DNA of 15,273 nt from Thermoproteota archaeon (GTDB taxonomy: Archaea > Korarchaeota > Korarchaeia > Korarchaeales > Korarchaeaceae), in the NCBI GenBank assembly GCA_027491415.1, contig JAOZFH010000040.1, forward strand, positions 1-15,273. Direction: 5' to 3'. The notes below the pieces were generated by a model. That model was not told where the DNA came from, made no database searches, and worked only from the letters and a program-made list of their open reading frames with translations. Shown piece after piece: positions 19-8,854 of the stretch (its first letter is position 1; every line of letters starts with the position of its first letter). Position numbers and translations under genes: made by a program.

Positions 19-955
19 GTGGAGTATAGAACGATCGGTAAGAGTGACCTAAGGGTCTCCGTGGTCGGGCTGGGGACCTGGCAGTTCGGCACGGAGGCGT
101 GGGCTTCGGCGCAGACTTCACCGAGGAGGACGCCAGGGGAGTATTAGAAAAGGCTCTCGAGCTCGGAATTAACCACATAGACACGGCGGAGGTCTACGGG
201 AAGGGCAAGTCAGAGGAGATAATTGGAGAAGTACTCGCTGACCGTCGAGACGAGGCCGTCATCACAACCAAAGTCTCAGGGGCTTACCTCAGGTACAGGG
301 ACGTGAAGAGAGCTGCTGAAAGAATCCTGCGCAGGTTGAGAACCAAGTACATAGATCTATACCTCGTCCACCGGCCCAACTACTACATTCCCCTAAGGGA
401 GACCACGAGGGCCCTAGAGGACTTGGTGGAGGAGGGCAAGGTCAGGTACGTCAGGGTCAGCAACTTCCCCGTGTGCATGATGGAGGGGGCGAGGTCCTAC
501 CTCAACAGGACAGACCTGGCGGCGAATCGGGTGAGATACAACTCCTCCAGAGGGAGATCGAGACCGAGATACTCCCGTACCTGAGGAGGGAAGGGCTGAC
601 TCTACTCGCTTACAGTCCCCTCGCCAGGGGGCTGCTCACAGGGAAGTACACCGTTGACAACATTCCAGCCGACGCAGTTTGAAGTGGGGACCCCCTGTTC
701 AGCAAGGAGGAAAACCTGAGGGCCGCCCTGAGGGTCGTGGACGTGCTGAGGTCCATAGGGGAGAGGTATGGAAAGACTCCGGCTCAGGCTGCGATCAACT
801 GGCTGCTGAGGGACCCGTCGGTCGTCGCCATTGTCGGGGCTAAGAGACCAGATCAGATCGTTCAGAACGCAGGCGCCGCAGGCTTCAAGCTCACAGAGGA
901 AGAGGCCCGGAGGATAGATGAGGTCACCTCGAACATCTGCTTGGACTACTTCTGA
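19..955 (+). pseudogene. Aldo/keto reductase pseudogene (two single-base frameshifts plus an in-frame TGA)
   Basis: Frame 1 from GTG 19 (GAGGG upstream; ATG at 1 is also in frame) reads MEYRTIGKSDLRVSVVGLGTWQFG. It shifts at ~100 into GINHIDTAEVYG..TTKV..IDLYLVH, shifts again at ~541 into LLQREIE..LAYSPLARGLLTGKY, hits TGA at 680-682, then continues in the same frame through TPAQAAINWLL..IVGAKRPDQI to the stop at 955. All are typical AKR motifs. Confidence 0.93.
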
Positions 956-993: not shown

Positions 994-2235
994 TCATCCC
1001 AGGTAGGGGGGCATCCCGACATCCTCCTTTTTCTCCGCTTCTTCCTCCCTCATGCTGAGCTTCTTCCGTGCCACCGACAGGAGTCTAGAAGAGACCATGG
1101 CCGGAGAGATTGTTCCGGCCAGCACTATGACCTCCGGCCTAGACGATAGGCGCTCCAACACCTCTATCATCTCCGCGGTGAATGTGTCGAATGCTGACGC
1201 GAGGTCGGCGCTCATGGCCGACTTGATCAGCTCTGTGGGCAGCATGAACTCGACGCCCTCCAGGTAGACGACGGCTGGCCCCCTCAAGGAGTCGGCGAGC
1301 GCCTTAAGCTCCGTGACGACCCCCTCCATGTTCTCCCTCATGGCGTGCACGCTGACTAGCAGGAGCTTGGCCTGGGCCTCGGAGGCTATCAGCTTGGCGA
1401 GAGATCTGCCCTCCATTGGACTCTCGTCCGGAAGGTCAACAACCACTAGGTGGGGTCCCTCCGCGTGAATGAGCTCCTTCACCATCTCTGTGGCCCTCTG
1501 TGCAAGGGGCCCCACGGCCTCTCTATCCTCGGAGGTCAGCTCGGTACCCACCTCCTCGATCGGCGGCACGGGTACGGGTTCAATGACGTGCCTGAAGCCC
1601 TGATCCTCCAGCATTGCCCTAAGGAAGGATTCCATGAGCTCTAGCTTCCCCAGAAGCTTCTGGTCGCTCACCTTCGGCTTGATGAGCAGTATGGCTGTCT
1701 CTGCGACCTTGGCGGCCTCCACGCTCCTGATGAAGACGCTGTACAGCGTCATGCCCCCAAGAAGTTCGATTAGACACTCCAGTCTCTCTGACTTGTCGGC
1801 CTCCTCAGCGATCCTCAGCGGGTCCAGCTGAGTGTCCAAGATTACGTCTATCAGGTACTCGTCGAGCCGGGTAAACGCCAAGAGGGCCATCAGCTTGAAC
1901 GGACCTAGGGAGCTGACGGACTCGCGCCTGTTGAGGGGGATCCTGTACTCCCTCACGAACTCTATGCCACCTGCCGTCGTCTCCAGGCAGGTCATCCTGG
2001 TCATGTAGAAGCAGGGCTTCACGACTCCCTTGACCCTGAGTACGTCCCCCGGAAAGAAGTAGTACGGGGTCACCCTCACGACTACGGTCAGCCTGCCAGT
2101 CCCGTCTTCCAGAACCAGGCGCTCGTAGGTCTCCTCGCCAAGTTTTGCGGTTGGAAGAACCTCCACTATTTTTCCCTCGATCTGAACCTCTGCGCCCTTC
2201 TTTATCCTGCCTTCGAGGATCTCAGCCATCTTCAT
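994..2235 (-). CDS. OB-fold nucleic-acid-binding domain fused to a degenerate (probably inactive) AAA+ ATPase-like domain
   Basis: The N-terminus VQIEGKIVEV..RLVLEDGTGRLTVVV..PGDVLRVKGVV is an RPA/tRNA_anti-type OB-fold. The C-terminus LAKLIASEAQAKLLLVS..GPAVVYLEGVEFML..VIVLAGTISPAMVSSRLL follows the classical AAA layout but lacks GKT and DE. The ORF track starts at 2271; ATG 2235 with GGGAG upstream is the likelier start. Confidence 0.65.
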   Translation of the reverse strand: MKMAEILEGRIKKGAEVQIEGKIVEVLPTAKLGEETYERLVLEDGTGRLTVVVRVTPYYFFPGDVLRVKGVVKPCFYMTRMTCLETTAGGIEFVREYRIPLNRRESVSSLGPFKLMALLAFTRLDEYLIDVILDTQLDPLRIAEEADKSERLECLIELLGGMTLYSVFIRSVEAAKVAETAILLIKPKVSDQKLLGKLELMESFLRAMLEDQGFRHVIEPVPVPPIEEVGTELTSEDREAVGPLAQRATEMVKELIHAEGPHLVVVDLPDESPMEGRSLAKLIASEAQAKLLLVSVHAMRENMEGVVTELKALADSLRGPAVVYLEGVEFMLPTELIKSAMSADLASAFDTFTAEMIEVLERLSSRPEVIVLAGTISPAMVSSRLLSVARKKLSMREEEAEKKEDVGMPPYLG

Positions 2236-2275
2236 GCTCCCGCAAACCCCGGGGGGTGGATAACGTGTCACAGGA

Positions 2276-2980
2276 TTAAGTTTCGCCGCTGCCCCGGGGC
2301 TCGACTAGCGGCACTATCCGCTCCATCACGTACCTCACGAAGTTCTCTACCTCAGTGGCCGTGAACACCGTCACCACGCAGTTTCGCGTTACCCCCACCG
2401 TTAGGCCCCACTCTCTGTCCTCGAACACCACGTACCAGATCTTCCCGTGTTTGAGGTACTCTTGGTATAGGTTAGTGTCCGCCAAGGCCTCCCCGAACAG
2501 GGAGAGCTTCCTTATGTTGGGCAGGTCCACCTGGTCGAAGTACACCACCTTCGCGGCCTCCGGGTTGGATTCGTGGAGCTCCCTGAGGGTCTCGTGGGAT
2601 ATTTTGGCCTCCACTATCCCTCCCGAGCCCAGCAGAAGAGCGTTGGAGAGGAGAGACGCTGCGGCGTTTGCCTTGGGTCTCTTCGCCAAGATCAGCAGCA
2701 TGGGCCCGCTATCAGTCCAGAACATGATGAAAGGGATCACTCGGGCCGAGACCTCGTACCTGACCCCTTCCCTACCGAAGAGGGGTACCAGGTACTCCTC
2801 GTACAGCTCCCCCCAGACCTCCGCCTCCCTGACGGTCTTCACATCCACCTGAGTCCTGAGCGTGAACTCCTCACCCCCGTGGGCCACGGACCGCTCCACC
2901 CTCCACCCCCTGAGCTTCTCCGCCGCGAGCTCCGGCGCCATGTCGCCTTCGACCCTGAAGATCTTCCCCACGAGAACCAT
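2276..2980 (-). CDS. Uncharacterised alpha/beta protein (234 aa)
   Basis: ATG start, normal composition, 68 bp from the divergent SMC start and co-oriented with the OB-AAA gene. It has conserved-looking segments (VVYFDQVDLPNIRKLSLFG..LADTNLYQEYLKHGKIWYVVF), but I cannot name a family. Confidence 0.8.
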   Translation of the reverse strand: MVLVGKIFRVEGDMAPELAAEKLRGWRVERSVAHGGEEFTLRTQVDVKTVREAEVWGELYEEYLVPLFGREGVRYEVSARVIPFIMFWTDSGPMLLILAKRPKANAAASLLSNALLLGSGGIVEAKISHETLRELHESNPEAAKVVYFDQVDLPNIRKLSLFGEALADTNLYQEYLKHGKIWYVVFEDREWGLTVGVTRNCVVTVFTATEVENFVRYVMERIVPLVEPRGSGET

Positions 2981-2998
2981 GACCTCGTCAACGATGGT

Positions 2999-3014
2999 CG
3001 GGGCAAATTGAAAA
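2999..3014. promoter_or_regulatory. Putative BRE/TATA core promoter in the divergent intergenic region
   Basis: CGGGGCAAATTGAAAA is the only AT-rich tract between starts 2980 (-) and 3049 (+). A near-identical motif occurs at 11733. Confidence 0.5.
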
Positions 3015-3048
3015 GGCTGCCCTGAACAGTGTATGAGAGCGGGGTGCG

Positions 3049-4773
3049 GTGGAAAGACTGGAGCCAGGCGGGACCTACATTAAGGAGGTGGTGCTGGAGA
3101 ACTTCATGTCTCATGAGTACTCAAGGATCCCGTTCAGACCTGGACTGAACCTTATCGCGGGCCCGAACGGGGCCGGGAAGTCGTCCATCGTCTTGGCAAT
3201 AGCCGTGGCGCTGGGTCAGACGAGAACCGAGAGGTCCAAGAGGCTCAGGGACCTGATCAGGAGAGGTCGAGACCTCTCGAGGGTCACCGTGGTATTTGAC
3301 AACAGCCCCGTTGAGGGGAGGCGGCCGATCCCGTGGTTCAGGGAGGACGAGATAAGGGTCTCTCGGTACATCCGAGCGGACGGAACCTACTGGTTTGAGC
3401 TGAACTACAGGACGGTCGACAAGTACGAGCTGACCAGCAGGCTGGCCAAGATGGGAATAGACCCGGACAACATGCTCGTCATCATGCACCAGGGTACCAT
3501 GGCGGAGTTCATCTCGATGAGCCCCACCGAGAGGCTGGTCATGGTTGAGGAGGCGGCCGGGCTCCACGAGTACAGAGAGAGGGTACTCCGGGCCATGAGG
3601 AAGATGGCCGGAGTCGAAGAAGAAGTCTCGAAGACCCAAGATCTCCTCAGGAGAGCTGAGGAGACCCTTGGGATTTGGAAGGCCAGGTACGAGAGGCTCT
3701 TGGAGAGGAGGAGGCTCGAAGAGAGGGCCGCAGAGTTGAGGGCAGAACTCGCCTGGGCAAAGTATGAGAGGCAGAGGGAGTTCATGAATCAGCTGGAGGT
3801 CGAGCTGGAGTCGACCGAGTCGGAGGTTGGGGAGGTAGAGAGCCAGATTGCCCGGCTGAGCGAGGTCCTCGCAAGGCTGGAGGAGGACTTCCGTGCGGTG
3901 GGCTCCACGCCCTCCGCTGGGGAGTGGAGCGAGGTGTGGAAGAGGATCCTCGACCTGCACGAGCGGATAGTGGACTCGGCGGTTCGGCAGGCCATACTGG
4001 AGTACAGGCTCAGGGAGCTCAGAGCTGCCGCCTCGCGCCTCCGAAGTAAGCTTAAGAGGGCGAGATCTGAGCTGGAGAAGCTGGAGGCCGAGGCGAAGTC
4101 GGTTGAGCGGCCCGCGGATCGGCTGAGGGATCCGGACGAGATCCTGGAGGAATTCAGATTGGTCGGAGCCCGGCTGGCGTCGCTCGGAGACGTCTCCGAC
4201 GATGTCGAGAGGATGTACCACCGTTACCTCCAGACCTACAAAGAGATCCGGGAGAGGCTCAATCGGCTGGAGGAGAACAGAAGGGAAATACTGGAGGCCC
4301 TCCAGGAGAGGGCCGAGTTCTGGAGGCGCGCCGTGAGGAGGCTCGTGTCTGAGGTCGACGAGGAGTTTCGGGAGATCCTCGGCAGGCTGGGCGGGGTCGG
4401 GTACGTCCGGCTGGTCGACGGAGAGGAGGTTGAGTCTGCAGGCCTCGAGGTGGGCGCGGGGTTCAGGGGGATGGACCCCGTTCCGCTGGAGTCCAGAGCG
4501 CTGAGCGGCGGTGAGAGGGCCACCACCGTTGTGGCGTTCATGCTGAGCCTGCAGAGGCACGTCAAGTCTCCGATTAGGATCATCGACGAGTTCGACGTTC
4601 ACATGGATCCCGCGCGCAGGGAGGTGGCTCTCAGGGAGTTCGCCAGGGTCCTGTCCCAAGCCGGTGGGCAGAGCATCCTCGTCACGCCAGGACCTCCTCC
4701 GAGGGTCGAGGGTCCGGTTCACCTCGTGTTCGTCCAGAGAGTCGGGGAAGCCTCCAGGGTGGCTGGAGCATGA
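3049..4773 (+). CDS. Short hinge-less SMC-family ATPase, SMC5/6-related (coalescin/ASRP-like)
   Basis: Motifs: IKEVVLENFMSHE, Walker A GPNGAGKSS, Q-loop IMHQG, a long coiled coil, signature LSGGE, Walker B/D-loop SPIRIIDEFDVHMD and H-loop position QSILVTP. It is 574 aa, with no hinge domain and no cysteine. Confidence 0.95.
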   Translation: MERLEPGGTYIKEVVLENFMSHEYSRIPFRPGLNLIAGPNGAGKSSIVLAIAVALGQTRTERSKRLRDLIRRGRDLSRVTVVFDNSPVEGRRPIPWFREDEIRVSRYIRADGTYWFELNYRTVDKYELTSRLAKMGIDPDNMLVIMHQGTMAEFISMSPTERLVMVEEAAGLHEYRERVLRAMRKMAGVEEEVSKTQDLLRRAEETLGIWKARYERLLERRRLEERAAELRAELAWAKYERQREFMNQLEVELESTESEVGEVESQIARLSEVLARLEEDFRAVGSTPSAGEWSEVWKRILDLHERIVDSAVRQAILEYRLRELRAAASRLRSKLKRARSELEKLEAEAKSVERPADRLRDPDEILEEFRLVGARLASLGDVSDDVERMYHRYLQTYKEIRERLNRLEENRREILEALQERAEFWRRAVRRLVSEVDEEFREILGRLGGVGYVRLVDGEEVESAGLEVGAGFRGMDPVPLESRALSGGERATTVVAFMLSLQRHVKSPIRIIDEFDVHMDPARREVALREFARVLSQAGGQSILVTPGPPPRVEGPVHLVFVQRVGEASRVAGA

Positions 4774-5525
4774 GCAGGACCTCGAGGACCAGGAGGGAGC
4801 TATTCGAGAGGATTCTGGAGCTTGTGCGAGAGGTCTTCTCGGGCAGGGTGGATCCATTCGACGTGAACGTGGTTCAACTCGCCTCTAGGCTCAGGGAGGA
4901 ATTCCCACGCCTCAGAGGGTGGGACGAGATCAATCTCGACCTCGAGGCGATGATCGGACTGGCGGGAGTCGTCGAGAGGCAGGGGGAGTGGATCGAGCAC
5001 CGGGCCTCTCGACTCTTCGTAGACCCCCTCCTCGTCGCGCTGAAGGTCGAGGTCATGGACCTGAAAGAGCTGGCCAGGATGTTCCTCAGGGCGTGGAGAC
5101 CGATCGTAGAGGCCAGGGGCGTCACTCCCGCCTTCCTGGAGGCTGCCATCAGTTACTGGCTCGAACTCCCACCCGCCTCAGGGAGGGGGGAGGCGCTGCC
5201 GGAGCCCAGAGGGGAGCAGGACTTTGAGCCACTCTGGAAGGAGGAGGAATTCGAAAAGAGGCTGATGCTCGAGGCTAGACGCCTCCAAATGGCGCTCGAC
5301 GAAAGGGAGGGGGAGATCAGCTACTCAGACTATCTGAGAGGGAAAGATCCGTGGGATTCCGCAGAGCGAGCTTATTTGCTCAGCTTTCTGATCTCGGACG
5401 GCGTGGTGTCAGTCAGGCGGGACCCGGCTACCGGTGAGCTCTTCCTGGTTCGACCCCGCGGCTCAGGCGACTCCGCAGAGTCCGTCGTCACCTGGCTGGA
5501 CATCGGCGGTGAGGGTCATGGGTGA
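4770..5525 (+). CDS. Kleisin (ScpA/Nse4-like)
   Basis: ATGA overlap with the SMC stop. The N-terminal ILELVREVFSGRVDPFDVNVVQL resembles the ScpA 'g.iDpwdidi' motif. The C-terminal AYLLSFLISDGVVSVRRDPATGELFL resembles the kleisin C-terminal winged helix. A Pro/charged linker lies between them. Confidence 0.85.
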   Translation: MSRTSRTRRELFERILELVREVFSGRVDPFDVNVVQLASRLREEFPRLRGWDEINLDLEAMIGLAGVVERQGEWIEHRASRLFVDPLLVALKVEVMDLKELARMFLRAWRPIVEARGVTPAFLEAAISYWLELPPASGRGEALPEPRGEQDFEPLWKEEEFEKRLMLEARRLQMALDEREGEISYSDYLRGKDPWDSAERAYLLSFLISDGVVSVRRDPATGELFLVRPRGSGDSAESVVTWLDIGGEGHG

Positions 5526-6093
5526 GGCGGAGGGAGGGGGCTCGGAGGACCTCAGGCGGAAGGTCAGGAGGGCGGCCCACATGCTGCTCCTCAGGAGCCA
5601 CGCAAAGCCCGGGGTGAAAGGGTGGGAGCTCAAGAGGGCGCTGGGGAAGGACTACAAGGTGGCTCTCCGCTTGCTGAACGAGGAACTCGCCGACATCGGA
5701 TTTAGGATCGTCGCAAAGGCGCCGGACGGTCGGGACGCGAGTGAGGAAGAGTACGGAGAGGCCACCTTCTACGTGACGTTTAGGGAGCCCCCGGACTGGC
5801 CGGAGATAAGGGGGTCTGGGTGGAGGATAGATGAGCTGGCTGCGCTGGCGGCCTGCGTGGCCCTGATATCGGCGAAGGGAGGTCGAGCGAGTAGGGAGGA
5901 GCTGGAAGACCTGCTAAAGTCAAAGCTGCCGGAATGGAAGGTTCCCGGCATCCTGACTAGGCTGATCAGGGCCGGATATCTCTCCGAGACGGATGAGGGG
6001 GTCGAGGTCGGCTGGAGGACGCGCGTTGAGATAGATGTCGAGCACCTGCTTAGACTCCTCCTCGGGTCCCGCGGCGCCTCCGGCGAGCGATGA
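5518..6093 (+). CDS. Putative KITE subunit (tandem winged-helix, ScpB/Nse1/Nse3-like), 191 aa
   Basis: ATG 5518 has GGTGAGGG upstream and overlaps the kleisin end. Two WH-like units: GVKGWELKRALG..LRLLNEELADIGFRIV and LAALAACVALI..ASREELEDLL..ILTRLIRAGYL..VEVGWRTRVEI. Its place after SMC and kleisin supports the call. Confidence 0.72.
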   Translation: MGEAEGGGSEDLRRKVRRAAHMLLLRSHAKPGVKGWELKRALGKDYKVALRLLNEELADIGFRIVAKAPDGRDASEEEYGEATFYVTFREPPDWPEIRGSGWRIDELAALAACVALISAKGGRASREELEDLLKSKLPEWKVPGILTRLIRAGYLSETDEGVEVGWRTRVEIDVEHLLRLLLGSRGASGER

Positions 6094-8854
6094 AATCCAT
6101 TATAGCGTCGAGGAGGGAGATCTCGCTGCCCCCAGACTTTGCGAGGAGGTCCTCGGCGGCTCTGGGAGAGACGCCGGCCGCAAAGGCCAGGACGGCCAGC
6201 CTCCCGTGCGCTTCTACCAGGGCGGCCGTCTTCCTGAGTTCTAAGATTATCCTCCTCATCTTTCGTCGCGACCTAGACTTCAGGGCCTTCTCGGAGAGCG
6301 AGAGGGCCTGCTCCACAACGAGCTCTGGCTCGCGAGAGATGCCGAGGCGACGAGAACCGCACACTGGACACTCCGGCCGCGCGGGGAGTTCGTACGGCTC
6401 CACCTCTTCCACGTAACCCCCGCAGCTCAGGCAGGCCAGGGTGATCCTCTCCGTGAGGAGTCGGACCCTCAGTCTCTCCCTCCTGAGGAGCCTCCTCTTG
6501 TCGGGTGGGATCGACTCGAGCCTGAGCCTCATCCACCGCAGGGCGTCTCTGCAGACTGGGGTGGGCTCAGCCATTCTCCCCAGATTGACGAGTTCCCACT
6601 CTCCCGAGGTCAGGCGGTCGAGCACCTGCCTGGCCTTGGGGATAGACATGTCCCTCTCAAGAACATCCTTGACGGCCTGCCTGTAGACTGGGGTCCCCTC
6701 AAGACTTGCCATCAGCCTGTCCAGCACCGACGGGGTCACCTCGGCGTCCCTCGAGACGACCCCCATCTTCCTTGCGGCCTGAAGGAGCCTGAACCTGAAG
6801 TAGCCGCTCCTCTCTACGGCTGCTTTAAGAGTCTCCTCCACGTCGAGAGGCGGCGACTCGAGGGCCTCAGCCACAGAGTCGGGGGACACCAGGTGACCGG
6901 AGAGGTAGACCCTGTAGGGGTCCTCCGCTACTCCCACCGCCGCCCCCGTCTCCCGGGAGATCGCCTCCGCCAAGTACCTAGCGAGGGCTCTGTTGGCGAG
7001 CGTCCCGGCGTGGACGTGCACCACGACGGTCTCGCCCACGGCCTCGACCACGATCCTCCTGTGCGTGGGCACGGGCAGGACCCTCTCGGCGGTCTCGATA
7101 GTGGGCAGGAGCGCGGGGAAGACCGTTGACTCCGCTACCCCGTACTCCTCCGCGATCGCCCGAGTCACATCACCCCTGGAGCGACCGGAGGCTATCATCT
7201 CCTCAACCCTGGCCCTTATGAGCCCGACCTCCTGGGAGACGGACATGGGTACTGGTATCTCCTCTCCCAACCAGTGTGGGATGGCCCCCTCTGGGTCCGG
7301 GTCCCTGACCACGTAGACCCTATCCCTGAACACCTGAACTATTCTCCAGACCTCTCCAGCCATAATGAACTTGGATCCAGGCTCCCCCCTCTCGGCGACG
7401 AATGGCTCGTCCAAGGTCCCCACGGGCTCCTCGGTGTCCTGATCCACCACGAGGTAGGTCCTGACCTCAGGGATCATCGAGAGGTTCTCGAAGTAGTACG
7501 GATAGAGGGCCGCGAAACCTGGGCCTCTCCTGAAGGAGCCAGACTCTGAGGCGAGAACAGGGCTCCTAGGCAGACTCGCCAAGAACTTGACGAGATCCAT
7601 CAGCTCGCCGGGCTCCGTCCGCCTGTAGTTGTAGGCCCGCCTGATGACCCCAAGCGCCTCCTGGACCGCCCACTCCGGTTTCCACATTAGAAGGGCGACA
7701 AGCTCGTGGAGCAGGGCGTCATAGGGTTTCTCTGGAATCTTGACAGGCTCGAGCCTGTCCTGCAGGGCCCTGCTCCTAACGACCATGGACTCCAGAGCGT
7801 CGTCTGGAGTCATGACAATCACGACGCCCCTGCTGACCTCCCCAACCCTGTGGCCGCTCCTGCCCACCCTCTGTACAAGCCTCGTCGCCTGCCTGGGGCT
7901 CATGTACTGGACCACCAGGTCGACGTGGCCCACGTCTATGCCCAGCTCGAGGGAGCTCGTGGAGACCAGGGACCTCACCTGGCCTTCTCTGAGGGCCTGT
8001 TCGGCCGTTATCCTTGTCCTTGCGGTAAGAGACCCGTGGTGTACCCCCATGGCTAAGCTGGAGTCCCACATCCTCAGCCTGCTGCCGAGCACCTCGGCCA
8101 TCGACCTTGTGTTGGTGAAGATCAGCGTGGTCCTGGCCCCTTCTATGAGTTCTCTTATCCTTCTGAGCCTGGCCGCCACCTCTGGGGAGACGTAAAGCCT
8201 TCCCGCCAGCTTCTCGTCTCGAGGAGTGGGTTTTGGGTACTCGACGCTTACTTCTATGCGCTTCGCCGCAGAGACGTACGCGACGCGGGGGATTGGGGAC
8301 GAGCCCGCAAGGAAGCGGGCTACCTCCTTCGGCGACCCGACGGTCGCCGAAAGTCCCGCAATCTGGGGGTGTCCGCCCGCCAGCACCTTGAGCCGTTCTA
8401 GAGCCAGAGCTAGCTGAGCTCCCCTCTTGCTCTCCGCCAGTTCATGAACCTCATCCACGATCAGGTACTTCACCGAGGTCAGGTGCTGACGGAACTTCCT
8501 CGCCACCAACAGTATCTGGAGCGTCTCTGGCGTTGTAACTAGTATATCGGGCGGCCTGGCCAGCTGAGCCCTCCGCTCTATGTCCGGGGTGTCTCCGTGG
8601 CGAACTCCAACAGTTAAATCAAGGCGAGAGGCCCACCACGATATCCTGAGCATGAGGTCCCGATTCAGAGCCCTTAACGGGGTCACGTAGAGAAGCCGAA
8701 TGCCCCCTGCCCTTGGGTCGTCCATGAGCCTCGACAGCATAGGGAGCAGGGCTGCCTCGGTCTTGCCCGTCCCTGTAGGGGCTATTAGGAGGACGTTCTC
8801 CCCCCTCATGAGTATTGGGATCGCCCTCTCCTGTGGCTCCGTGGGCCTCAACAT
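6050..8854 (-). CDS. lhr: Lhr-family ATP-dependent DNA helicase (SF2) with C-terminal Zn finger
   Basis: Motifs APTGTGKT, PLRALNRD, TTPETL, DEVH, SAT, HHGSL, TSSLELGIDVG, QRVGRSGH, IPHWLGE and C-terminal CLSC..CPVC. Conserved N-terminal sequence probably extends to ~8913-8916 (see findings). The 3' end overlaps the KITE gene by 44 nt. Confidence 0.95.
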   Translation of the reverse strand: MLRPTEPQERAIPILMRGENVLLIAPTGTGKTEAALLPMLSRLMDDPRAGGIRLLYVTPLRALNRDLMLRISWWASRLDLTVGVRHGDTPDIERRAQLARPPDILVTTPETLQILLVARKFRQHLTSVKYLIVDEVHELAESKRGAQLALALERLKVLAGGHPQIAGLSATVGSPKEVARFLAGSSPIPRVAYVSAAKRIEVSVEYPKPTPRDEKLAGRLYVSPEVAARLRRIRELIEGARTTLIFTNTRSMAEVLGSRLRMWDSSLAMGVHHGSLTARTRITAEQALREGQVRSLVSTSSLELGIDVGHVDLVVQYMSPRQATRLVQRVGRSGHRVGEVSRGVVIVMTPDDALESMVVRSRALQDRLEPVKIPEKPYDALLHELVALLMWKPEWAVQEALGVIRRAYNYRRTEPGELMDLVKFLASLPRSPVLASESGSFRRGPGFAALYPYYFENLSMIPEVRTYLVVDQDTEEPVGTLDEPFVAERGEPGSKFIMAGEVWRIVQVFRDRVYVVRDPDPEGAIPHWLGEEIPVPMSVSQEVGLIRARVEEMIASGRSRGDVTRAIAEEYGVAESTVFPALLPTIETAERVLPVPTHRRIVVEAVGETVVVHVHAGTLANRALARYLAEAISRETGAAVGVAEDPYRVYLSGHLVSPDSVAEALESPPLDVEETLKAAVERSGYFRFRLLQAARKMGVVSRDAEVTPSVLDRLMASLEGTPVYRQAVKDVLERDMSIPKARQVLDRLTSGEWELVNLGRMAEPTPVCRDALRWMRLRLESIPPDKRRLLRRERLRVRLLTERITLACLSCGGYVEEVEPYELPARPECPVCGSRRLGISREPELVVEQALSLSEKALKSRSRRKMRRIILELRKTAALVEAHGRLAVLAFAAGVSPRAAEDLLAKSGGSEISLLDAIMDFIARRRRRGTRGGV

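What the first reader, a model, noticed from the sequence alone, without database searches (positions are those of the whole stretch)
3049..6093. Complete minimal SMC5/6-like complex (SMC + kleisin + KITE) encoded as one archaeal operon
Seen: three overlapping co-oriented genes. The SMC head has motifs characteristic of eukaryotic Smc5/Smc6 rather than prokaryotic condensin Smc or Rad50: ENFMSHE, SPIRIIDEFDVHMD (Smc6-like SPFR.LDEFDV.MD) and Pro in place of the H-loop His (ILVTP, like Smc5/6 'ITP'). Established: SMC-kleisin-KITE is the Smc5/6, Smc-ScpAB, MukBEF and Wadjet architecture, and short archaeal SMC-like proteins (coalescin ClsN, Arcadin-4, Sph) are known. Inference: this is a self-contained, possibly homodimeric proto-Smc5/6 complex with a single KITE. 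It could act in chromosome organisation, in repair or in restricting extrachromosomal DNA. No JetD-type nuclease is visible here. The family type may already be described bioinformatically, but I know of little functional work on such a three-part complex.
Basis: partly seen in the sequence, partly recalled or inferred. Interest (0 to 1): 0.88.

Follow-up and report, generated by a model that had tools for sequence, protein, structure and literature searches.

The report
Archaeal short SMC5/6-like three-gene operon
Three overlapping archaeal genes encode a half-length relative of the eukaryotic Smc5/6 DNA-repair complex (ATPase, kleisin bridge and one winged-helix partner); this kind of operon has already been described by comparative genomics but never tested at the bench.

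Summary
Window 3049-6093 carries three co-oriented, overlapping genes: a 574-aa SMC-type ATPase, a 251-aa protein and a 191-aa protein.

The interpretation also holds.
- A profile of the 251-aa family hits Nse4 first in the PDB. Its model matches kleisins.
- The 191-aa model is a tandem winged helix closest to Nse3 and Nse1.
- A profile of the ATPase family ranks Smc5 and Smc6 above every other solved SMC.
- A head tree puts the family with Smc5/6 at moderate support (92/91). An AU test does not reject the alternative.

The gene order is kept in 56 of 57 wide loci from two archaeal phyla.

The kind is in print: "SMC5/6-related aSMC" (Yoshinaga and Inagaki 2021) and three-gene SMC5/6-related operons in TACK and Asgard archaea (van Hooff et al., bioRxiv 2025). 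This is a new member of a known kind.

Points I did not see in the text I read:
- The family is uniformly short (about 540-770 aa), with no hinge hit and no zinc hook.
- An aLhr1-type helicase lies convergently next to it in many lineages.
- A conserved 234-aa unknown protein often lies divergently upstream.

Function is untested.

The parts
3049..4773 (+). SMC5/6-related SMC-type ABC ATPase, 574 aa. The N-head is about residues 8-205 and the C-head about 425-570. About 220 residues of coiled coil lie between them, with no hinge hit and no Cys.
   Evidence: Pfam SMC_N scores 104 bits. NCBIfam SMC_prok_A scores 230 bits against a cut-off of 729; ASRP scores 89 against 300. With the family profile, the top ten PDB hits are Smc5 or Smc6 at 178-207 bits. 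Motif tally. Middle region.
4770..5525 (+). Kleisin of Nse4 type, 251 aa: N-terminal helical domain, central KITE-binding stretch (about residues 82-136) and C-terminal winged helix (about 160-230).
   Evidence: The family profile hits Nse4 at E 4.8e-4, EID3 at 6.4e-4 and ScpA at 0.029-0.11. Pfam Nse4_C matches 31/45 family members at E<=1, but not the window's own copy. AF2 gives pLDDT 75. Foldseek's top hit is Nse4 7tve_G at E 2e-3. VIA-align gives ScpA C-WHD Z 9.1 and Nse4 Z 8.6 over 150 residues.
5518..6093 (+). KITE subunit, 191 aa: tandem winged helix of Nse3/Nse1 (MAGE) type.
   Evidence: AF2 gives pLDDT 89.5 and pTM 0.78. Foldseek gives Nse3 7dg2_C at E 6.5e-6 and Nse1 7dg2_A at 1.7e-4. 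VIA-align gives Nse3 Z 13.3 over 172 residues, ScpB Z 8.7 and JetB Z 8.4. The family profile hits a MAGE/Nse3 chain at E 1.8e-3.
2981..3048 (.). 68-bp divergent intergenic region, the presumed promoter region. It holds an A/T-rich stretch AAATTGAAAA at about 3006-3015.
   Evidence: Read directly. Promoter function is inferred and was not tested.
2276..2980 (-). Conserved 234-aa protein of unknown fold, divergently transcribed. It is a frequent neighbour, not a proven component.
   Evidence: A homologue lies within the locus in 36/57 wide loci, and directly upstream and divergent in 22. It has no Pfam, PDB or PADLOC hit. It is present in 33/43 genomes of the phylum, including 14 without the SMC.
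6050..8854 (-). aLhr1-type Lhr helicase, 934 aa, convergent. Its 3' end overlaps the KITE gene by 44 bases. It is a frequent neighbour and a possible functional partner.
   Evidence: Pfam finds DEAD, Helicase_C, WH_Lhr and DEAD_assoc. An Lhr homologue lies in 28/57 wide loci, and directly downstream and convergent in 20. A C-terminal CxxC...CxxC motif is present in 22/23 full-length neighbours.

Best explanation
What it is. The three genes encode one copy of the archaeal 'SMC5/6-related' SMC-kleisin-KITE complex.

Shown here:
- The ATPase has a full set of ABC/SMC nucleotide motifs: Walker A GPNGAGKS, Q-loop, signature LSGGE and Walker B IIDE.
- It shares derived head motifs with Smc5/6.
- The second protein has the kleisin layout, with Nse4 as nearest relative.
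- The third is a tandem winged helix nearest to Nse3 and Nse1.
- A complex model places two KITE copies on kleisin residues 82-136.

Inferred from solved Smc5/6-Nse1/3/4 and Smc-ScpAB structures:
- Two ATPase heads engage around two ATP.
- The kleisin N-domain binds the neck of one SMC, and its C-terminal winged helix binds the cap of the other.
- A KITE homodimer on the kleisin middle helps clamp DNA on the engaged heads.
- Hydrolysis resets the clamp.

My own inference. Only about 220 residues separate the head halves, and there is no hinge hit or zinc hook. I therefore think the complex acts as a short-range DNA clamp or entrapment device in repair or replication-fork processing, not as a long-range loop extruder. 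The frequent adjacency of an aLhr1 helicase fits that reading.
For: Gene structure.

ATPase.
- Pfam SMC_N.
- With the family profile, the ten best PDB chains are all Smc5 or Smc6 (178-207 bits). Below them come Pyrococcus Smc 173, Smc2 155, Smc3 134 and Rad50 54.
- Motif tally.
- Careful ML head tree of 55 rows: family + two Smc5 + P0240 against all canonical SMCs, 92/91.

Kleisin. The N-terminal 73 residues align to the Nse4 N-domain (8i13_H, Z 6.7, rmsd 2.7).

KITE.

Binding model (two KITE + kleisin).
- Score 0.71, best of 3 controls 0.00.
- That mark was reached by 58 of 80 solved complexes and 2 of 110 mismatched pairs.
- The runs agree in at least 68% of contacts, and the partner's pLDDT is at least 62.
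- Like complexes are solved, so this shows likeness and may come from memory.

Synteny and range.
- Synteny holds in 17/17 loci, 27/30 loci and 56/57 wide loci (these partly re-fetch the places).
- The family occurs in 19/43 genomes of its own phylum.
- It occurs in 201/401 sampled genomes of the phylum of L010.

Second operon. The same genome holds a divergent operon with a hinge-bearing SMC and a ScpB. The published two-complex picture predicts this.

Literature. I read sections 8 and 14 of bioRxiv 10.1101/2024.01.07.573240, passages of 10.1101/2021.05.15.444277 and section 8 of PMC9389158.
Against: - With the single sequence, the best PDB hit is Pyrococcus Smc (124 bits) ahead of Smc5 (105). 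NCBIfam's best model is SMC_prok_A.
- The N-head scores higher against some canonical long SMCs (up to 118 bits) than against Smc5 (44-54).
- The AU test does not reject family + canonical SMCs as one group (p = 0.362).
- Only three Smc5/6-type rows were available, and all sit on long branches.
- The window's own kleisin has no Pfam hit.
- Kleisin fold matches are all above E 0.001. Generic winged helices score nearly as well.
- No structure of the ATPase was predicted, so dimer formation without a hinge is unsupported.
- Nothing here bears on activity or on expression.
Confidence: 0.85

Rival explanations
1. It is a divergent, shortened paralogue of the ordinary prokaryotic Smc-ScpAB condensin. 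On this reading it has no special kinship to Smc5/6, and the likeness to Nse proteins is convergence or shared ancestral character.
For: - The single-sequence best hits are Pyrococcus Smc and SMC_prok_A.
- The N-head scores well against canonical SMCs.
- The AU test does not reject grouping with canonical SMCs.
- ScpA and ScpB also appear among the weaker hits.
Against: - With the family profile, all ten best PDB chains are Smc5/6.
- Nse4 outranks ScpA, and Nse3/Nse1 outrank ScpB.
- Pfam ScpA and ScpB models do not hit these proteins, while a true ScpB lies elsewhere in the genome.
- hhalign between the two operons' small proteins gives a probability of about 1%.
- The TP and DEF motifs are shared only with Smc5/6-type rows.
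- Two published phylogenies agree.
Confidence: 0.07
2. It is chiefly an immunity system against plasmids or viruses, of the Wadjet or Lamassu kind. A short SMC-like sensor would work with the neighbouring Lhr (BrxHI-like) helicase.
For: - The ATPase hits the PADLOC models mad3 (126 bits), LmuB (87) and JetC (48). The helicase hits BrxHI at 330 bits.
- The family is patchy inside its own phylum: 19/43 genomes, and 4/21 in one genus.
- From general knowledge, eukaryotic Smc5/6 restricts extrachromosomal DNA.
Against: - The kleisin, the KITE and the 234-aa protein hit no defence model.
- No nuclease or effector lies in the window, and the neighbours are housekeeping genes.
- The family is in 201/401 sampled genomes of a whole phylum, with stable gene order. 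That is more like a core function than a defence island.
- The PADLOC hits to the ATPase are generic head matches, weaker than SMC_prok_A at 230 bits.
Confidence: 0.06
3. It belongs to one of the known short archaeal SMC-like families: ASRP (coalescin ClsN, Sph), Arcadin-4 or Rad50.
For: The size is similar (574 aa). There are weak NCBIfam hits: ASRP 89 bits, Rad50_Sulf 103 bits, Arcadin-4 49 bits.
Against: - All three scores are far below their cut-offs of 300, 1000 and 860.
- There is no Cys at all, so no zinc hook; 0/29 family members have CxxC in the middle region.
- The Rad50-like protein of this genome is the outgroup in the tree.
- In section 8 of PMC9389158, ASRPs form a clade separate from the SMC clade that holds the 'SMC5/6-related' archaeal SMCs.
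Confidence: 0.01

Closest known systems
Archaeal 'SMC5/6-related' SMC-kleisin-kite operons (Yoshinaga and Inagaki 2021, 10.1101/2021.05.15.444277; van Hooff, Raas, Tromer and Eme, bioRxiv 10.1101/2024.01.07.573240)
   Same: - One SMC gene, an Nse4-related kleisin and an Nse1/3-like kite sit in one operon.
- The lineage is of TACK type. Yoshinaga and Inagaki included a Korarchaeota sequence.
- It coexists with a second, ScpB-bearing operon in the same genome.
- A homodimeric SMC is proposed.
   Different: Nothing contradicts membership. In the sections and passages I read, I did not see three points: the half length and missing hinge, the adjacency of an aLhr1 helicase, or the 234-aa neighbour.
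Eukaryotic Smc5/6-Nse1-Nse3-Nse4 core (for example PDB 7tve, 7qcd, 7dg2)
   Same: - Head motifs: TP at the H-loop position, DEFDV as in the Smc6-like row, NFMS near the N-terminus.
- Best profile hits for all three subunits.
- Kleisin layout.
- Tandem winged-helix KITE bound to the kleisin middle.
   Different: - One SMC gene instead of Smc5 + Smc6.
- One KITE instead of Nse1 + Nse3.
- No RING on the KITE.
- Arms about a quarter as long.
- No hinge hit.
- No Nse2, Nse5 or Nse6 identified.
Prokaryotic Smc-ScpAB
   Same: Presumed homodimeric SMC, one kleisin and presumably a KITE homodimer, encoded together.
   Different: - The ScpA and ScpB Pfam models do not match.
- The SMC equivalog cut-offs are not reached.
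- No SMC_hinge hit.
- A genuine hinge-bearing SMC + ScpB operon lies elsewhere in this genome (contig C41).
RecN and Lamassu LmuB (short-armed SMC-like ATPases; comparison from general knowledge)
   Same: About 550-600 aa, with short coiled coils and no canonical hinge.
   Different: From general knowledge, those are not known to pair with an Nse4-type kleisin and an Nse3-type KITE. LmuB models score 87 bits or less here, against 230 for SMC_prok_A.

Membership tests
Archaeal SMC5/6-related SMC complex | The SMC head groups with Smc5/Smc6 rather than with canonical Smc | tested here: inconclusive
   The tree gives the grouping at 92/91, and the profile ranks Smc5/6 first. AU p = 0.362 for the alternative, and only 3 Smc5/6-type rows were available.
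Archaeal SMC5/6-related SMC complex | Kleisin related to Nse4 | tested here: met
   The family profile hits Nse4 at E 4.8e-4, ahead of ScpA. Pfam Nse4_C matches 31/45 members. The fold matches Nse4 over both ends.
Archaeal SMC5/6-related SMC complex | Kite of Nse1/3 type, not ScpB or MukE type | tested here: met
   Foldseek gives Nse3 at 6.5e-6 and Nse1 at 1.7e-4. VIA-align gives Nse3 Z 13.3 against ScpB 8.7 and JetB 8.4.
Archaeal SMC5/6-related SMC complex | All three subunits in one operon, separate from a condensin-type operon | tested here: met
   Overlapping genes. Synteny in 56/57 wide loci. A second operon lies on C41.
Eukaryotic Smc5/6 holo-complex | Smc5-Smc6 heterodimer | tested here: not met
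   One family member in the genome. The other SMC_N genes are a hinge-bearing SMC and a Rad50-like protein.
Eukaryotic Smc5/6 holo-complex | Two KITEs (Nse1 with RING, Nse3) | tested here: not met
   A single KITE gene in a genome that is 96% complete. The protein is 191 aa with no RING hit in Pfam.
Eukaryotic Smc5/6 holo-complex | Long arms with a hinge; Nse2 on the Smc5 arm; Nse5/6 | tested here: inconclusive
   The middle region is 205-304 aa in 29 members, and none of the 120 listed homologues has Pfam SMC_hinge. The Smc5/6-type rows also lack that Pfam hit. Nse2, Nse5 and Nse6 were not searched for.
Smc-ScpAB | SMC equivalog score, SMC hinge, ScpA and ScpB families | tested here: not met
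   SMC_prok_A scores 230 against 729, and SMC_prok_B 179 against 567. There are no ScpA or ScpB hits on these proteins.
ASRP (ClsN/Sph) | NCBIfam ASRP cut-off; zinc hook at the coiled-coil apex | tested here: not met
   The score is 89 bits against a cut-off of 300. The protein has no Cys, and 0/29 members have CxxC in the middle region.
Wadjet (JetABCD) | JetA, JetB and JetC models plus a JetD nuclease | tested here: not met
   JetC scores only 48 bits. There are no JetA or JetB hits on the small proteins. No nuclease is seen in the window by Pfam or PADLOC. The KITE fold does resemble JetB at Z 8.4.
Rad50/Mre11 | Rad50 equivalog score, zinc hook | tested here: not met
   The best Rad50 model scores 103 bits against 1000. 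There is no Cys. A separate Rad50-like gene lies on C36.

The most novel reading that the evidence does not exclude
The family is a hinge-less, quarter-arm-length Smc5/6-type machine. It closes around DNA without a hinge, through heads, kleisin and KITE only, or through an unrecognised apex contact. In many archaea it works as one conserved module with an aLhr1 helicase, and perhaps with the 234-aa unknown protein, at stalled forks or recombination intermediates. That would be an archaeal counterpart of the eukaryotic partnership between Smc5/6 and fork-remodelling helicases.
Probability: 0.25. Interest if true: 0.7.

Novelty: new member of a known kind. Interest (0 to 1): 0.45.

Why it matters
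Smc5/6 is the least understood eukaryotic SMC complex, and its origin is debated. A thermophile-style three-subunit version with a 574-aa ATPase would be a small, tractable object for structure and biochemistry. It poses three concrete questions:
- How does a complex with no detectable hinge hold DNA?
- Is the Smc5/6-type DNA clamp ancestral?
- Does the recurrent helicase neighbour point to a fork-repair role that predates eukaryotes?

The class itself is already in print, so the value lies in these details and in the lack of any experiment. My two literature searches for experimental work listed none.

Tried and rejected
- Related loci. The related-loci scan of genome contigs was swamped by the P-loop pattern. 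Only 2 of 80 loci were family members. I used the genome search instead.
- Kleisin homologues. The single-sequence search found only 5.
- The 234-aa neighbour. It has no Pfam, NCBIfam, PDB-profile or PADLOC hit. The atlas gave only unnamed clusters, plus weak CENP-L (0.83) and RdgC (0.79) leads. hhalign against E. coli RdgC gave probability 0.1, so that lead was dropped.
- Strict partnership of the 234-aa protein. I rejected this: 14 of the 24 genomes of the phylum without the SMC still have it.
- The 425-aa upstream gene. It is kept only within the genus, in 4 loci, and is not part of the system.
- Expression.
- Kleisin fold search. Foldseek gave no match at E <= 0.001.
- A length gap. Homologues of 1005-1162 aa were searched by neither protein search. 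Most Smc5/6 proteins fall in that gap.
- Other neighbours. All-against-all clustering of neighbour ORFs found no recurrent neighbour beyond the 234-aa family and Lhr, apart from shadow ORFs and one 8-locus cluster.
Full report
THE OBSERVATION

The window is contig C58 of a 1.78-Mb assembly that is 96% complete. On the + strand it has ORFs at 3049-4773 (574 aa, GTG), 4770-5525 (251 aa, ATG) and 5518-6093 (191 aa from ATG). The first junction is an ATGA overlap and the second an 8-base overlap. A GTG at 5434 would give 219 aa for the third ORF. The family profile only matches from 5542 on, so I keep the ATG.

THE ATPASE

Family scans.
- Pfam gives SMC_N at 104 bits.
- No NCBIfam equivalog cut-off is reached: SMC_prok_A 230 against 729, ASRP 89 against 300, Rad50_Sulf 103 against 1000, Arcadin-4 49 against 860.

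PDB searches.
- The single sequence hits Pyrococcus Smc best (124 bits), then Smc5 (105) and Smc6 (96).
- A profile of 29 family members (A1) reverses that order. The ten best PDB chains are all Smc5 or Smc6 (178-207 bits).
- Below them come Pyrococcus Smc 173 (a truncated construct), Smc2 155, Smc3 134 and Rad50 54.

Homologues.
- More than 1500 homologues exist. The 120 listed are 543-663 aa and none carries Pfam SMC_hinge.
- Source names include Hadarchaeales, Bathyarchaeia, Methanodesulfokora, Methanomethyliaceae, MSBL1 and Hodarchaeaceae.
- Among longer proteins (1162 aa or more), the best hits are ordinary hinge-bearing SMCs. All but four of the 120 listed have the hinge domain.
- The four exceptions include a named Smc5 (P0295), a second fungal protein that groups with it (P0324) and an unnamed 1296-aa protein, P0240. 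I call P0240 Smc6-like from its motifs and tree position. That label is my inference.

Motif tally.
- TP at the H-loop position: 29/29 family rows, both Smc5 rows and P0240; 0/22 canonical rows.
- DEF after Walker B: 28/29 family rows and P0240; 0/22 canonical rows.
- NFMS[HY] near the N-terminus: 27/29 family rows; P0240 has DNFMSH.

Head tree.
- I built a careful ML tree of concatenated head halves: 55 rows, 354 columns, LG+C20+F+G4, with a Rad50-like outgroup from the same genome.
- It puts family + Smc5 + P0240 on one side and all canonical SMCs on the other, at 92/91.
- This is not decisive. The Smc5/6-type rows are few and sit on long branches.
- An AU test does not reject holding the family with the canonical SMCs (p = 0.362).
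- The N-head alone scores better against some canonical SMCs than against Smc5, while the C-head scores better against Smc5.

THE TWO SMALL PROTEINS

Neither has a Pfam, NCBIfam or PDB hit as a single sequence. I collected syntenic homologues from genomes and from the representative library. I aligned them as A2 (45 rows) and A3 (72 rows).

The 251-aa protein.
- The A2 profile hits yeast Nse4 (E 4.8e-4) and human EID3 (6.4e-4), then ScpA (0.029-0.11).
- Pfam Nse4_C matches 31 of 45 members at E <= 1 (best 6.3e-5), though not the window's own copy.
- The AlphaFold model has pLDDT 75 and pTM 0.37. It shows an N-terminal helical domain, a poorly ordered middle and a C-terminal winged helix.
- Foldseek's best rows are kleisins: Nse4 at 2e-3, then Brn1, the ScpA C-domain and Scc1/RAD21 C-domains. 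None is below 0.001.
- VIA-align gives ScpA-C Z 9.1 (rmsd 2.8, 70 aligned), Nse4 Z 8.6 (150 aligned, spanning residues 1-240) and the Nse4 N-domain Z 6.7 over residues 1-73.
- Generic winged helices reach Z 7-8 as well.

The 191-aa protein.
- The A3 profile hits a MAGE/Nse3 chain (1.8e-3), MAGE-G1, NSE3 and NSE1 (0.08-0.47). A better-scoring designed repeat protein is a repeat artefact with no stretch passing.
- Pfam SMC_Nse1 matches 8/72 members and MAGE 6/72.
- The model is confident (pLDDT 89.5, pTM 0.78) and is a tandem winged helix.
- Foldseek gives Nse3 at 6.5e-6 (TM 0.56) and Nse1 at 1.7e-4 (TM 0.60), then MAGE proteins, ScpB, MukE and JetB.
- VIA-align gives Nse3 Z 13.3 (172 aligned), other Nse3/Nse1 chains Z about 10, ScpB 8.7 and JetB 8.4.

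Complex model.
- Two KITE copies plus the kleisin passed: score 0.71, best of 3 controls 0.00.
- That mark was reached by 58 of 80 solved complexes and 2 of 110 mismatched pairs.
- The runs agree in at least 68% of contacts, and the partner's pLDDT is at least 62.
- Kleisin residues 82-136 touch both KITE copies.
- Like complexes are solved, so this shows likeness rather than proof of binding.

CONSERVATION AND RANGE

- The order SMC, kleisin, KITE is kept in 17/17 wide loci.
- It is kept in 27/30 narrowly flanked loci. Two of the misses are at contig ends, and L165 is unexplained.
- Among 57 wide loci, 57 have the kleisin and 56 the KITE; L188 has none.
- Those 57 are 17 earlier loci plus 40 regions that I picked from the hit list. 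Twenty were the best-scoring places and partly re-fetch the loci. Twenty were lower-scoring places on long contigs.
- The family is in 19/43 genomes of its own phylum.
- It is in 201/401 sampled genomes of the phylum that holds the Thermofilales locus L010. The listed open frames there are 290-774 aa and never exceed 1000; the shortest sit at contig ends.
- Each small gene is single-copy in this genome.

A SECOND OPERON IN THE SAME GENOME

Contig C41 carries an SMC (open frame 793 aa, with Pfam SMC_hinge at 57 bits), an overlapping 220-aa ORF and a ScpB at 81 bits. Profile comparison of the two operons' small proteins gives probabilities of about 1%. They are old paralogues at most. This is the two-complex state described in the literature.

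WHAT IS ALREADY KNOWN

- Yoshinaga and Inagaki (10.1101/2021.05.15.444277; passages read) found archaeal SMCs that group with Smc5/6 and named them 'SMC5/6-related aSMC'.
  - These made up 80 of 512 archaeal SMCs, mostly from TACK lineages, including one Korarchaeota sequence.
  - 44 of the 80 genomes also had a canonical SMC.
  - The authors proposed separate homodimeric complexes.
- Their 2022 paper (PMC9389158; section 8 read) recovers that sub-clade at 100%/0.99. It separates the zinc-hook ASRP family (ClsN, Sph) from it.
- Van Hooff et al. (10.1101/2024.01.07.573240; sections 8 and 14 read) add an Nse4-related archaeal kleisin clade and an Nse1/3-like kite. They show that each paralogous set sits in its own three-gene operon.
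- They too could not reject monophyly of all eukaryotic SMCs (p-AU 0.317).
- Two searches for experimental work listed none.

DETAILS I DID NOT SEE IN THE TEXT I READ

Supplements were closed and may hold these points.

1. Short arms and no hinge.
 - The family is uniformly about half the length of other SMCs.
 - Between the head halves lie 205-304 residues in 29 members (220 in the window).
 - The apex is gappy and unconserved, and 0/29 members have CxxC there. The window protein has no Cys at all.
 - In van Hooff's main text, 'shorter' occurs 0 times, and 'hinge' occurs only in general descriptions.
2. An Lhr helicase neighbour.
 - An Lhr helicase lies in 28/57 wide loci. It is directly downstream and convergent in 20, as in the window, where the 3' ends overlap by 44 bases.
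 - It is absent from all 20 loci of the best-scoring Thermoproteota group.
 - 22 of 23 full-length neighbours carry the C-terminal CxxC...CxxC that marks aLhr1 in Hajj et al. (PMC8301817).
 - The main text of that paper never mentions SMC and reports no conserved context (passages read).
 - A five-term search on Lhr, archaea, SMC, helicase and kleisin (papers holding at least four) listed 15 of its 57 matching papers, and Lhr did not occur in any of the 15.
3. A 234-aa neighbour.
 - A 234-aa protein of unknown family (window 2276-2980, - strand) lies in 36/57 loci, and directly upstream and divergent in 22.
 - It is found in 33/43 genomes of the phylum. That includes all 19 with the SMC and 14 of the 24 without.
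 - It is therefore a frequent neighbour, not an obligate partner.

MECHANISM

Shown: intact ATPase motifs, the kleisin layout, the KITE fold, and a predicted contact between the KITE pair and the kleisin middle.

Inferred from solved relatives: ATP-driven head engagement; a kleisin bridge from the neck of one SMC to the cap of the other; DNA clamped on the heads by kleisin and KITE.

My inference from the short, hinge-less arms and the helicase neighbour: a local DNA clamp acting in repair or at replication forks, rather than a long-range loop extruder.

A defence role is a minor rival. The ATPase and helicase hit generic PADLOC models, but the small proteins do not. No effector nuclease is present, and the surrounding genes are housekeeping.

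LIMITS

- Only three Smc5/6-type sequences were at hand.
- Proteins of 1005-1162 aa were never searched.
- No expression data were found (see Tried and rejected).

Noticed in passing
own genome, contig C41:64631-68013 (locus L209): A second SMC-kleisin-ScpB operon. Its SMC has a Pfam hinge but only a 793-aa open frame, so its arms are also short. No ATG, GTG or TTG lies upstream of the conserved N-terminal strand: the first is at 64736, while the Pfam match starts at 64670. That suggests an unusual start codon or an assembly error.
   Followed up: partly
window 2276-2980 (-): A 234-aa protein of an unnamed archaeal family. It is a frequent divergent neighbour of the SMC gene (36/57 loci) and is present in 33/43 genomes of the phylum. 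It matches no known domain; the weak CENP-L and RdgC leads were not supported by hhalign.
   Followed up: partly
window 6050-8854 (-): An aLhr1-type helicase, convergent and overlapping the KITE gene by 44 bases. This adjacency recurs in 20 of 57 loci over two phyla. It is absent from one large Thermoproteota group (0/20).
   Followed up: partly
window 99-584 (+): An aldo/keto reductase ORF that covers only profile positions 15-167 of 291 and ends in an Arg/Ser-rich tail. It is probably truncated or frameshifted.
   Followed up: no
window 3121-4857 (-): A 578-aa antisense ORF lying over the SMC gene. It is Pro/Arg/Leu-rich and looks like a shadow ORF of a GC-rich gene.
   Followed up: no
loci L124-L126 and L010: A gap of about 470-720 bases between the SMC and kleisin genes, where the window has an overlap. 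Its content was not examined.
   Followed up: no
loci L187, L189-L192 and relatives: A conserved ORF of about 513 aa (8 loci) sits between the 234-aa gene and the SMC gene in one Thermoproteota group. Its identity was not examined.
   Followed up: no
window 994-2271 (-): A 425-aa protein with a weak AAA hit (E 0.0017) and an OB-like N-terminus. It is kept next to the 234-aa gene only within the genus (4 loci).
   Followed up: partly
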